Below are positions 34,932 to 36,709 of a DNA stretch of 64,000 nt, in pieces. Made by a program: the position numbers and the translations under genes. The notes beneath the pieces were generated by a model that worked only from the letters and a program-made list of their open reading frames with translations, was not told where the DNA came from and ran no database searches. Location of the stretch: NCBI RefSeq assembly GCF_045037415.1, contig NZ_CP173438.1; one strand, written 5' to 3'. Position 1 is the stretch's first letter. Each line of letters starts with the position of its first letter. The stretch comes from Escherichia coli (lineage in GTDB: Bacteria; Pseudomonadota; Gammaproteobacteria; Enterobacterales; Enterobacteriaceae).

Positions 34932-34960
34932 TTGACTCGAAAGGTAACTCTTGTTACCTT
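34932..34960 (+). promoter_or_regulatory. Candidate PL promoter with OL operator
   Basis: TTGACT at 34932-34937; operator GTAACTCTTGTTAC at 34944-34957 has the same consensus as the OR sites. Confidence 0.45.
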
Positions 34961-35141
34961 AACAACATACCAACCCACCCCGCCCCACAGAACGCCGGGC
35001 AATACTTCGAGTTACCAAGCAGTGGTCAGGGGGTAAGTAGCCAGCCCGAGGCGTAAGAACATGACGGCAGGGTTCAACTTTAATAACTATGCAGCAGGTT
35101 TTTGTTCCGCTCCCCCGGCGTTAAGGGGAAATGAGGTCAGC

Positions 35142-35297
35142 ATGGATACTATCGATCTTGGCAACAGCGAATCTCTGGTATGTGGCGTGTTCCCCAACCA
35201 GGACGGCACGTTCACCGCAATGACGTATACCAAAAGCAAAACGTTTAAAACCGAAAATGGTGCCCGTCGCTGGCTGGAAAGAAACTCAGGTGAGTGA
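35142..35297 (+). CDS. Small early-left protein (51 aa)
   Basis: SD GAGGT 4 nt upstream of ATG; a longer alternative start exists at 35061. Confidence 0.4.
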   Translation: MDTIDLGNSESLVCGVFPNQDGTFTAMTYTKSKTFKTENGARRWLERNSGE

Positions 35298-35298
35298 T

Positions 35299-35427
35299 AT
35301 GGATTTCGACACAATCATGGAAAAGGCTTACGAAGAATACTTCGAAGGCCTTGCCGAAGGCGAAGAAGCTCTCAGCTTCAGTGAGTTTAAACAGGCGCTT
35401 TCCAGCTCGGCAAAATCTAACGGCTGA
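35299..35427 (+). CDS. Small acidic early-left protein (42 aa)
   Basis: MDFDTIMEKAYEEYFEGLAEGEEALSFSEFKQALSSSAKSNG; SD AGGTGA; below the ORF track threshold. Confidence 0.4.
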   Translation: MDFDTIMEKAYEEYFEGLAEGEEALSFSEFKQALSSSAKSNG

Positions 35428-35456
35428 TAAGCGAAGCAGCACCGCGAGGAATCAGT

Positions 35457-35675
35457 ATGCAGAAACGAGAACCCGTCATCATCGCGCCAGACTATACCGA
35501 TGATGAACTTTATGAGTGGATGCGCCAGAAAATTAATGCAGCGCAGGATCTGAAATGGGCCAATGAAGCCAGGACTAAGCAGGCTGAAAATCTGTCCGCT
35601 CTGGAGCAGGATATCACCAGGCTGGAAAAAGCAGCGGCATTAAGCATTGCCAGAATGGTTACATACCCGCGTTAA
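35457..35675 (+). CDS. Small early-left protein (72 aa)
   Basis: SD GAGGAA upstream. Confidence 0.5.
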   Translation: MQKREPVIIAPDYTDDELYEWMRQKINAAQDLKWANEARTKQAENLSALEQDITRLEKAAALSIARMVTYPR

Positions 35676-35786
35676 TAGCTAACCAACGAAGCTAAGGTTG
35701 GTAATTAAGGAGTTCTCCACGGGTCAGGTGGAGTGCGTGCGCCGGACACGGGTGAACATCCGGCACTGACAGTTTACTGAAAGGAT

Positions 35787-35966
35787 ATGTCCCTGAAAAG
35801 TCAGGGCATAAAGCGAAAGCGCACGGCGAAATTGGTCTCTCTGTACGGTGTCGTTAAATTTAGTTCGACCGTGCGCTTCCGGTTGTGGCACTCCGCGAAA
35901 TGGCGCGGCGGTAAGTATGGCGGGGTTATTCCTTCCTCCGTTGAGGACACCGGGTTGTCAGGTTGA
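35787..35966 (+). CDS. Candidate basic 59-aa ORF inside an otherwise ORF-free hairpin-rich segment
   Basis: MSLKSQGIKRKRTAKLVSLYG...; SD spacing suboptimal; start overlaps hairpin CCCTGA-aaag-TCAGGG. Confidence 0.25.
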   Translation: MSLKSQGIKRKRTAKLVSLYGVVKFSSTVRFRLWHSAKWRGGKYGGVIPSSVEDTGLSG

Positions 35967-36240
35967 CCATACGCTTAAGTGACAACTCCGCTGCAACGCC
36001 CTCTGTTATCAATTTTCTGGTGACGTTTGGCGGTATCAGTTTTACTCCGTGACTGCTCTGCCGCCCTTTTTAAAGTGAATTTTGTGATGTGGTGAATGCG
36101 GCTGAGCGCACGCGGAACAGTTAAAACCAAAAACAGTGTTATGGGTGGATTCTCTGTATCCGGCGTTAATTGTTAACTGGTTAACGTCACCTGGAGGCAC
36201 CAGGCACCGCATCACAAAATTCATTGTTGAGGACGCGATA

Positions 36241-36429
36241 ATGGAAACGTTATTACCAAACGTTAATACGTCTGAAGGTTGTTTTGAAATTGGTGTCAAT
36301 ATCAGTAACCCTGTATTTACTGAAGATGCCATTAACAAGAGAAAACACGAACGGGAGCTATTAAATAAAATATGCATTCTTTCAATGCTGGCCCGTTTAC
36401 GTCCGATACAAAAAGGATGCTGGCAATGA
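36241..36429 (+). CDS. Small early-left protein (62 aa)
   Basis: SD GAGGA; stop overlaps the next start as ATGA. Confidence 0.45.
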   Translation: METLLPNVNTSEGCFEIGVNISNPVFTEDAINKRKHERELLNKICILSMLARLRPIQKGCWQ

Positions 36430-36617
36430 ATACAGCATTTGCACTTGTTCTGACAGTTTTTCTTGTTTCCGGAGAGCCAGTTGATATTGCAGTCAGTGTT
36501 CACAGGACAATGCAGGAGTGTGTGACTGCAGCAACCGAACAGAAAATTCCCGGTAACTGTTACCCGGTCGATAAAGTTATTCACCAGGATAATAACGAAA
36601 TCCCGGCAGGTCTTTAA
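36426..36617 (+). CDS. Small hydrophobic N-terminus protein (63 aa)
   Basis: MNTAFALVLTVFLVSGEPVD... signal-peptide-like or TM N-terminus; SD AAAGGA. Confidence 0.5.
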   Translation: MNTAFALVLTVFLVSGEPVDIAVSVHRTMQECVTAATEQKIPGNCYPVDKVIHQDNNEIPAGL

Positions 36618-36709
36618 AACAGTTCCGTAATAAATATCCGGTTTCATTCTTATATGCCAGCAATGGCAGGGATTTGTTCACCCTTAAATCTGTAATGAGG
36701 TAAAACAAA

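What the first reader, a model, noticed from the sequence alone, without database searches (positions are those of the whole stretch)
34960..36700. Early-left operon is a string of six very small ORFs (42-72 aa) with no recognisable N, recombination or rex-type genes
Downstream of the candidate PL/OL, the plus strand encodes six small proteins of 51, 42, 72, 59(?), 62 and 63 aa, several with SD motifs and overlapping stop/start codons, before the large exonuclease-domain gene. Bet/Exo/Gam, RecET and Erf-type functions are absent. In lambdoid phages this region is where host-takeover and superinfection-exclusion or defence genes accumulate.
Basis: seen in the sequence. Interest (0 to 1): 0.4.

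Follow-up and report, generated by a model that had tools for sequence, protein, structure and literature searches.

The report
The known dicBF prophage operon

Summary
Window 34960-36700 (+) is the dicBF operon of a lambdoid prophage inserted next to ompW in an ST131-type E. coli. It is 100% identical over 1841 nt to many RefSeq genomes, and some version of it occurs in 4766 of 5426 complete E. coli genomes. Five ORFs are real and conserved: YdfA (51 aa), YdfB (42), YdfC (72), DicB (62) and YdfD (63). They are 88-100% identical to K-12 Qin, intact in every locus compared, with pN/pS 0.18-0.61. The '59 aa' ORF is a lineage-specific chance frame. In 8 of 8 other loci it has ATT instead of ATG, two in-frame stops and frameshifting indels. 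It lies in the untranslated ydfC-dicF spacer. Published work on K-12 Qin shows that DicF represses ftsZ and manX, DicB blocks division through MinC and excludes ManYZ-dependent phages, and YdfD lyses cells through IspG. N, Bet/Exo/Gam, RecT and Erf are indeed not detected. Seen in passing: a conserved, probably pseudoknotted RNA domain just upstream of DicF, shared with P1 and other phages and almost always followed by a terminator; and a CI-type repressor whose catalytic Ser is Ala.

The parts
34153..34869 (+). CI-type repressor (HTH plus LexA/S24-like C-terminal domain). Context: it controls the operon. The start could be 34153 (RefSeq) or 34195.
   Evidence: RefSeq 'LexA family protein'; NCBIfam DicA-like HTH and LexA-like C-terminus; PHROG 4 repressor; alignment A6.
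34875..34899 (+). Terminator-like hairpin plus T-run after the repressor gene
   Evidence: Read from the sequence: AACCCGC-ATTCATT-GCGGGTTTTTT. Inferred; the scan did not list it.
34932..34960 (+). Candidate PL promoter (TTGACT, 17 nt, TACCTT) overlapping the operator palindrome GGTAACTCTTGTTACC (34943-34958)
   Evidence: The operator pattern matches perfectly here and at 1-2 mismatches at 34132 and 34180 between cI and cro. The promoter is inferred and is below the threshold of the scan.
35142..35297 (+). ydfA, 51 aa, DUF1391, function unknown
   Evidence: Pfam PF07151 9.5e-28; 49 of 51 aa identical to K-12 YdfA; pN/pS 0.18. The longer 78-aa start at 35061 is not conserved.
35299..35427 (+). 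ydfB, 42 aa, acidic, function unknown
   Evidence: Identical to K-12 YdfB; RefSeq 'protein YdfB'; pN/pS 0.21.
35457..35675 (+). ydfC, 72 aa, predicted single long helix, function unknown
   Evidence: 69 of 72 aa identical to K-12 YdfC; intact in 9 of 9 loci; AlphaFold2 helix 15-69, pLDDT 85.
35787..35966 (+). The '59 aa' ORF: not a gene, a chance frame in the untranslated ydfC-dicF spacer
   Evidence: ATT for ATG, two in-frame stops and frameshifts in 8 of 8 other loci; cluster of 8 members; not annotated in RefSeq. It does match PHROG 8854, a family built from phage gene calls.
35882..35997 (+). Conserved structured RNA domain ('module A'), the 5' part of the 190-nt DicF precursor
   Evidence: At least 120 IMG/VR contigs. 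Covariation supports helices P0, P2, P3 and P5. The start coincides with the RNase III 5' end reported for K-12 (PMC10448788; coordinate mapping inferred).
36014..36071 (+). dicF: 53-nt DicF sRNA (36014-36066) with its terminator hairpin and U-run (to 36071)
   Evidence: Rfam RF00039, 76.7 bits against a gathering score of 48; 58 of 58 nt identical to K-12; K-12 annotation.
36074..36225 (+). dicF-dicB spacer RNA structure closed by a 21-bp helix; probable RNase III site; weak STnc100 similarity
   Evidence: MFE -71 kcal/mol, z = -5.35; RF02076 38.7 bits, below the gathering score of 47; 99.4% identical to K-12.
36241..36429 (+). dicB, 62 aa, cell-division inhibitor and ManYZ-dependent phage exclusion
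   Evidence: NCBIfam NF049927 130 bits (cut-off 100); Pfam PF05358 1.1e-36; 54 of 62 aa identical to K-12 DicB.
36426..36617 (+). ydfD, 63 aa, DUF1482, lysis protein (IspG inhibitor in K-12)
   Evidence: Pfam PF07358 4.1e-25; 59 of 63 aa identical to K-12 YdfD; PMC8835842.
36710..39181 (+). Intact ydfE-type 823-aa exonuclease (truncated by IS2 in K-12), last large gene before xis (39246-39494) and int (39472-40602)
   Evidence: Pfam Rv2179c-like 3'-5' exoribonuclease domain at residues 641-813, 2.5e-60; PHROG 2082; partial RecE-like middle region; K-12 ydfE pseudogene.

Best explanation
The region is the dicBF operon (ydfA-ydfB-ydfC-dicF-dicB-ydfD, followed by an intact ydfE-type exonuclease, xis and int). 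It is the early-left operon of a Qin-like lambdoid prophage integrated beside ompW. A repressor-controlled PL-type promoter makes one polycistronic RNA. From studies of K-12 Qin (published, not shown here): RNase III and RNase E cut the long ydfC-dicB untranslated stretch to release a 190-nt and then a 53-nt DicF. DicF pairs with ftsZ, manX, xylR and pykA mRNAs and blocks their translation. DicB binds MinC, takes it to midcell, stops Z-ring formation and disables the ManYZ channel, so that lambda-like phages cannot inject DNA. YdfD inhibits IspG and lyses cells. YdfA, YdfB and YdfC are conserved small proteins of unknown role. Their sequence here is near-identical to K-12, so I infer the same activities. 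One part of the regulation differs: the repressor is a CI/LexA-type protein rather than DicA.
For: The region is 100% identical over 1841 nt to RefSeq genomes annotated ydfA/ydfB/ydfC/dicB/ydfD. Gene order and sizes equal K-12 Qin b1571-b1576. The five proteins are 54-62 of 62 to 42 of 42 residues identical to K-12. DicF scores 76.7 bits in Rfam and is 58 of 58 nt identical to K-12. DicB is above the NCBIfam curated cut-off, with Pfam DicB, DUF1391 and DUF1482 matches. There is purifying selection and the frames are intact across 7-9 loci. Phage Tritos annotates the same layout including DicF. Mechanisms come from PMC10448788, PMC6832061, PMC5069750 and PMC8835842.
Against: Nothing contradicts the identification. 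Expression and activity in this strain are inferred, not shown. DicB differs from K-12 at 8 of 62 residues, mostly at the C-terminus. The immunity region differs from K-12, so the inducing signals known for Qin (Rem antirepressor, urea, heat) need not apply.
Confidence: 0.97

Rival explanations
1. One reading: these are six uncharacterised small proteins with no recognisable relatives: a new set of host-takeover or defence genes.
For: YdfA, YdfB and YdfC have no known function. They have no PDB relatives, no PADLOC hit and no NCBIfam model. PHROGs lists all of them as 'unknown function'.
Against: All five real ORFs are named genes of a locus studied since the 1980s. Three have Pfam families and DicB an NCBIfam model. 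DicB and YdfD have published mechanisms. The sixth ORF is not a gene.
Confidence: 0.02
2. The small ORFs are chance frames in a long untranslated early leader and are not translated.
For: This is true of the 59-aa frame. The ydfC-dicB stretch is about 565 nt of non-coding RNA.
Against: The other five frames are intact in all 7-9 loci, with third-position bias and pN/pS 0.18-0.61. They have SD motifs and coupled stop/start codons. DicB and YdfD have protein-level phenotypes in the literature.
Confidence: 0.03
3. The 59-aa ORF is a real, recently evolved small protein specific to this prophage lineage.
For: The frame is open with an ATG in this lineage. Some pipelines called it on about 80 contigs, and it matches PHROG 8854 over its full length.
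Against: The frame is disrupted in all 8 other loci, while the nucleotide sequence of its 3' half is 97% conserved. That half lies inside an RNA domain whose conservation is explained by base pairing. The AGGA is only 1 nt from the ATG. RefSeq omits it.
Confidence: 0.05

Closest known systems
dicBF operon of cryptic prophage Qin, E. coli K-12 (ydfA b1571 to ydfD b1576, dicF b1574)
   Same: Same genes, same order, same sizes. About 96% nucleotide identity from 35100 to 36700. DicF is identical. The ydfC-dicF and dicF-dicB spacers are conserved.
   Different: The repressor is a 238-aa CI/LexA-type protein with its own operators, not DicA. The leader between promoter and ydfA is about 190 nt rather than about 45 nt. 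The downstream exonuclease, xis and int are intact, not IS2-disrupted. The prophage sits at ompW and looks complete. A 55-nt patch at 35805-35860 differs and creates the spurious 59-aa frame.
Lambda early-left operon (N, ral, sieB, kil, cIII, gam, bet, exo, xis, int)
   Same: The position and logic are the same: a repressor-controlled leftward promoter next to cI, small host-directed genes including an FtsZ-directed division inhibitor (Kil in lambda, DicB/DicF here), then a nuclease, xis and int.
   Different: No N or nut, no Gam/Bet/Exo and no cIII family detected. The division block uses an sRNA and a MinC-binding protein. The nuclease has a DnaQ-like Rv2179c-type domain.
Phage Tritos, mEp460_ev081 and the 'PPompW' prophages of EHEC
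   Same: Functional or inducible lambdoid phages carrying the same ydfABC-dicF-dicB-ydfD-exonuclease block, at 84-97% identity.
   Different: They have different immunity regions. Some lack ydfA and ydfB or carry extra ORFs inserted after ydfC or before dicB.
HK022 putL/putR antiterminator RNAs (compared only with the RNA domain upstream of DicF)
   Same: Both are cis-encoded structured RNAs in an N-less lambdoid early operon, lying between the promoter and the first intrinsic terminator.
   Different: put is about 70 nt with two stem-loops and occurs twice per phage (PMC9378689). The domain here is about 115 nt with a probable pseudoknot and occurs once in the window. It has no sequence similarity to HK022. 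No antitermination activity has been tested.

Membership tests
dicBF operon (Qin type) | Gene order ydfA-ydfB-ydfC-dicF-dicB-ydfD on one strand downstream of the immunity repressor | tested here: met
   same order and lengths as K-12 b1571-b1576.
dicBF operon (Qin type) | DicA/DicC immunity controlling dicBp | tested here: not met
   The repressor has a DicA-like HTH (79.7 bits, below the cut-off of 101) fused to a LexA/S24-like domain. Homology to K-12 starts only at about 35103. The immunity module is swapped, as is usual among lambdoid phages, and the operon body is unaffected.
dicBF operon (Qin type) | [quoted passage not shown] | not testable with these tools
   Shown for K-12 in PMC10448788. 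Here only the sequence and predicted structures of the processed region are conserved.
DicF RNA (Rfam RF00039) | Match to the covariance model at or above the gathering score, with a 5' single-stranded seed and a terminator hairpin | tested here: met
   76.7 bits against 48, model positions 1-52 of 52; followed by UUUUU.
DicB (NCBIfam NF049927, Pfam PF05358) | Full-length match above the curated cut-off | tested here: met
   130 bits against a cut-off of 100, residues 1-62 of 62; Pfam 1.1e-36.
DicB (NCBIfam NF049927, Pfam PF05358) | MinC-dependent division block and ManYZ inhibition | not testable with these tools
   Published for K-12 DicB (PMC6832061). This variant differs at 8 of 62 residues.
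YdfA/DUF1391 and YdfD/DUF1482 | Pfam family match | tested here: met
   PF07151 9.5e-28 and PF07358 4.1e-25.
Lambda N / nut antitermination | An N-family protein gene as the first gene after PL | tested here: not met
   ORFs between 34887 and 35297 have no N-like PHROG or NCBIfam hit. A hairpin at 35790-35807 resembles boxB only loosely and is not conserved in other loci.
Red (Exo/Bet/Gam), RecET or Erf recombination modules | A single-strand annealing protein gene (Bet, RecT or Erf) next to an exonuclease | tested here: not met
   Only one large gene lies between ydfD and xis. Its domain is an Rv2179c-like 3'-5' exoribonuclease. The RecE-like match covers profile positions 271-602 only, 253 bits against a cut-off of 1269.
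HK022 put-type antiterminator RNA (for module A) | Sequence and structure similarity to put; two copies (PL and PR); terminator read-through activity | tested here: not met
   No similarity to HK022 DNA, a single copy in the window and a different architecture. Activity is not testable here.

The most novel reading that the evidence does not exclude
The roughly 115-nt conserved, probably pseudoknotted RNA domain at 35882-35997 has so far been seen only as the 5' extension of the 190-nt DicF precursor. It may be a mobile cis-acting element in its own right. It is shared by Qin-like, cdtI/Stx2c-type and P1/P7 phages, and it always sits between an early promoter and the first intrinsic terminator. 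It might set the balance between release of a swappable sRNA and read-through into downstream genes, and at the extreme it could be a put-like, protein-independent antiterminator that would explain the missing N. My evidence shows that the domain, its covariation and its constant association with a terminator are real. It says nothing about activity.
Probability: 0.1. Interest if true: 0.6.

Novelty: already known. Interest (0 to 1): 0.1.

Why it matters
As reported, the finding does not matter much. It rediscovers one of the oldest known prophage host-takeover loci, present in most E. coli genomes. The useful results are corrective. Five ORFs, not six, are genes. A 53-nt sRNA is the central product and cannot be seen by ORF reading. 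About 565 nt between ydfC and dicB is structured, processed RNA rather than coding sequence. Two side observations might be worth a specialist's time: the conserved RNA domain upstream of DicF-type sRNAs, and a repressor with an alanine in place of the catalytic serine controlling this toxic operon in about 700 genomes.

Tried and rejected
1. N-like antiterminator between PL and ydfA: none found with PHROGs or NCBIfam.

2. Defence-system membership: no PADLOC hit for any of the six proteins.

3. PDB sequence relatives of YdfA, YdfB and YdfC: none significant. The best was a phage head-decoration protein at E = 0.32, which probably explains the odd 'head-DNA stabilization protein D' labels in some phage records.

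4. AlphaFold2 single-sequence models: YdfC is one long helix (pLDDT 85), and YdfA is a low-confidence beta-hairpin (pLDDT 64). Neither is suitable for fold search, so none was run.

5. Homology of module A to HK022 put: rejected.

6. Rfam family for module A: none at E <= 5.

7. Second copy of module A in the window, which would be the putR analogue: none by pattern or by covariance model with filters off.

8. RNAalifold's own consensus for module A: no covariation beyond shuffles, so it was rejected in favour of the hand-built structure (against 62).

9. The 78-aa extended YdfA: rejected because K-12 and NCTC86 place their promoters inside that stretch.

10. The promoter scan found no + strand sigma-70 site at its threshold, so the PL assignment rests on the operator and a weak -10.

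Full report
**Observation**

The + strand between 35142 and 36617 carries ORFs of exactly 51, 42, 72, 59, 62 and 63 aa. An 823-aa ORF follows at 36710-39181, then an excisionase (39246-39494) and an integrase (39472-40602). Upstream lie a CI-type repressor on the same strand (34153/34195-34869) and, divergently, cro-like, cII-like, O-like and DnaC-like genes.

**Identity**

The sizes suggested the dicB operon of prophage Qin, so I tested that.
- A megablast of 34880-36720 against 5426 complete E. coli genomes gave 100% identity over all 1841 nt in many ST131-type genomes. The annotations there are ydfA (DUF1391), ydfB, ydfC, dicB and ydfD (DUF1482). 4770 genomes hold some match, with a median of 2 and up to 10 places per genome.
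- The RefSeq annotation of strain JJ1887 shows the same genes between a LexA-family repressor and exonuclease-excisionase-integrase-ompW.
- K-12 MG1655 has ydfA (b1571), ydfB, ydfC, dicF (ncRNA b1574), dicB and ydfD in the same order, with the same lengths.
- Residue identity to K-12 is 49 of 51, 42 of 42, 69 of 72, 54 of 62 and 59 of 63. Nucleotide identity is 88-100% per 100-nt bin from about 35170 onward, but only 38% before 35070.
- DicB passes NCBIfam NF049927 (130 bits, cut-off 100).
- Pfam finds DicB, DUF1391 and DUF1482.
- Rfam finds DicF at 36015-36066 (76.7 bits, gathering score 48). That stretch is 58 of 58 nt identical to K-12.

**Real genes versus chance frames**

I compared the window with eight further loci (K-12, phage Tritos, phage 204576, an Stx2a/PPompW phage, NCTC86, O157:H7 and two others).
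- The five named ORFs are intact wherever present. Variable sites are biased to third codon positions, and pN/pS is 0.18, 0.21, 0.61, 0.48 and 0.56.
- The 59-aa frame fails the same test. All eight other loci have ATT for the ATG, two in-frame stops, and a 1-nt indel in six of them, although the 3' half of the stretch is about 97% identical at the nucleotide level.
- Its exact protein sits in a cluster of 8 members, against 260-1500 for the others, and RefSeq does not annotate it.
- It does match a PHROG family, but PHROGs are built from gene calls. That shows only that some pipelines called it.
- The 78-aa alternative start of ydfA is also not conserved. K-12 and NCTC86 diverge upstream of about 35103, where their own TTGAC-type promoters lie.

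**What lies between ydfC and dicB**

This roughly 565-nt stretch is RNA, not protein. In K-12 the polycistronic transcript from dicBp is cut by RNase III to give a 190-nt DicF species and by RNase E to give the 53-nt form (PMC10448788).

Mapping 190 nt back from the terminator U-run (36071) gives about 35882 (inferred). That is exactly where an independently mobile block of similarity begins. Window 35882-36005 occurs on its own in three settings:
- about 350 nt downstream of cI in phage cdtI and in Stx2c phages;
- at +36 to +130 of the P1ban transcript in P1 and P7, where the P1 record calls it a 'dicF-like region'.

On an unbiased MAFFT alignment of 53 versions I tested a hand-built structure: closing helix P0, hairpin H1, helix P2 enclosing a variable hairpin P3, and helix P5 crossing P2.
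- It pairs 96.5% of cells and has 7 pairs with changes on both sides. None of 500 shuffles reaches this, and the slid controls pair 30-63%.
- RNAalifold's own consensus shows nothing beyond shuffles.
- A model-based realignment of 78 versions gives the same picture.
- The variable hairpin folds in about 36 of 38 distinct versions, with at least six different stem sequences and a pyrimidine-rich loop, often containing UCCU.
- The independent events are few, and the set was selected by two conserved boxes. I therefore call the structure supported, not proven.

In 101 of 102 unique module-plus-flank sequences, a simple scan found a GC-rich hairpin followed by a T-run within 53-150 nt downstream. 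The scan sometimes stopped at DicF's internal UUUU rather than the true terminator, so the count is approximate. Only 40 of 78 versions carry the DicF seed; the rest carry other sRNA-like 3' parts.

No Rfam family covers the domain, and I found no paper describing it.

The dicF-dicB spacer (36074-36225) folds into a multibranch structure closed by a 21-bp helix (z = -5.35). It has sub-threshold similarity to Rfam STnc100. A long perfect helix is a plausible RNase III substrate (inference).

**Regulation here**

- The three best matches in the whole window to GGTAAC-N4-GTTACC lie at 34132 and 34180 (between cI and cro) and, perfect, at 34943-34958, next to TTGACT at 34932.
- The repressor is not DicA. 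It has a DicA-like HTH and a LexA/S24-like C-terminal domain.
- Its catalytic motif reads GDAM. An 87%-identical E. coli homologue, Pantoea phage AH07 and phage cdtI read GD(E)SM. The Ala-Gly site and the Lys are present.
- LexA S119A does not self-cleave (established knowledge), so this repressor is probably not RecA-cleavable. This immunity region is in 701 genomes, but only four copies were inspected.

**Mechanism**

The following steps are shown in K-12 and inferred here.
- DicF pairs with ftsZ, manX, xylR and pykA mRNAs (PMC5069750; PMC10448788).
- DicB recruits MinC to midcell and, through MinC, inactivates ManYZ. This gives roughly 100-fold resistance to lambda and other ManYZ-dependent phages (PMC6832061).
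- YdfD binds IspG and causes lysis (PMC8835842).
- YdfA, YdfB and YdfC remain without function. I add only that YdfC is predicted to be one long helix, that YdfA is a low-confidence hairpin, and that none has a PDB or PADLOC relative.
- The 823-aa protein carries an Rv2179c-like 3'-5' exoribonuclease domain at residues 641-813, and a middle region similar to the non-catalytic part of RecE. It is the intact form of K-12's IS2-disrupted ydfE.

**Comparison and verdict**

The locus meets every sequence-level criterion of the dicBF operon except the DicA/DicC immunity module, which is swapped. The claim of unrecognisable genes and the count of six proteins are wrong, and the sRNA was missed. Novelty: already known. 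Interest: low. The only parts I would pass on are the RNA domain upstream of DicF and the Ser-to-Ala repressor, both recorded as side observations.

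Noticed in passing
window 35882-35997 (+); also L010 (P1) 2501-2595, L011 (cdtI) 2490-2623, and IMG/VR loci L013-L132: A conserved RNA domain of about 115 nt lies just upstream of DicF. It is shared by lambdoid and P1/P7 phages and has covariation-supported helices, including a probable pseudoknot. It is almost always followed by a variable sRNA-like hairpin terminator. No Rfam family or paper was found for it.
   Followed up: partly
window 36074-36225 (+); window 23751-23940 (-); L010 (P1) 3842-3961: The dicF-dicB spacer folds into a very stable structure closed by a 21-bp helix (z = -5.35) and weakly resembles Rfam STnc100. 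A full STnc100 copy (132 bits) lies in the late region downstream of two tRNA genes, and P1 has a weak copy upstream of tciA. This may be a recurring processing element of phage operons.
   Followed up: partly
window 34153-34869 (+), codon at about 34603-34605: The CI/LexA-type repressor has Ala in place of the catalytic Ser (GDAM against GDSM/GESM in relatives), while the Ala-Gly site and the Lys are kept. It is predicted not to self-cleave, so the prophage and its dicBF operon may not be SOS-inducible. This immunity region occurs in 701 of 5426 complete E. coli genomes.
   Followed up: partly
window 35805-35860 (+): A 55-nt patch in the ydfC-dicF spacer differs sharply from all eight other loci (substitutions plus a 3-nt deletion), while the flanks are 95-100% identical. 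This patch removes the two stops of the spurious 59-aa frame; the ATG itself comes from a separate ATT-to-ATG change at 35789. Origin unknown; it may be a recombination patch.
   Followed up: no
L005 1742-2360 and L006 2099-4102 (relatives), corresponding to window about 35696 and about 36225: In PPompW/Stx2a phages and in NCTC86, extra ORFs (hypothetical proteins, a Rha-family regulator) are inserted about 20 nt after ydfC and between the dicF spacer and dicB. These two points appear to be insertion sites for extra genes within the operon.
   Followed up: no
window 29412-29587 (-) and 24640-24889 (-): There is a hok/sok-type toxin-antitoxin (Rfam sok 120 bits; RefSeq hokD) and two tRNA genes (Ile and Arg in RefSeq) in the prophage between Q and the lysis genes. 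A queH-like gene lies nearby.
   Followed up: no
window about 5202-5206; L137 24346-27588 (JJ1887): The window is about 99.99% identical to the JJ1887 prophage but lacks the 3.2-kb ISEcp1-blaCTX-M-15 insertion that splits the tape-measure gene in JJ1887. The tape-measure region is uninterrupted at that point in the window.
   Followed up: partly
hits H94 (Aeromonas phage AP1) and H89/H147 (Actinobacillus phage vB_Apl-pPE4) to window 36004-36250 and 35898-36225: Near-identical DicF-region DNA (98% over 247 nt) appears in an Aeromonas jumbo-phage record, and an 82-87% match appears in an Actinobacillus phage. This could be contamination, assembly chimeras or real transfer.
   Followed up: no
phage records H67-H69 and H90-H92: Several deposited phage genomes label the ydfA homologue 'head-DNA stabilization protein D'. 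The only support I could find is a non-significant PDB similarity (E = 0.32), so this is probably an annotation error that has spread.
   Followed up: partly
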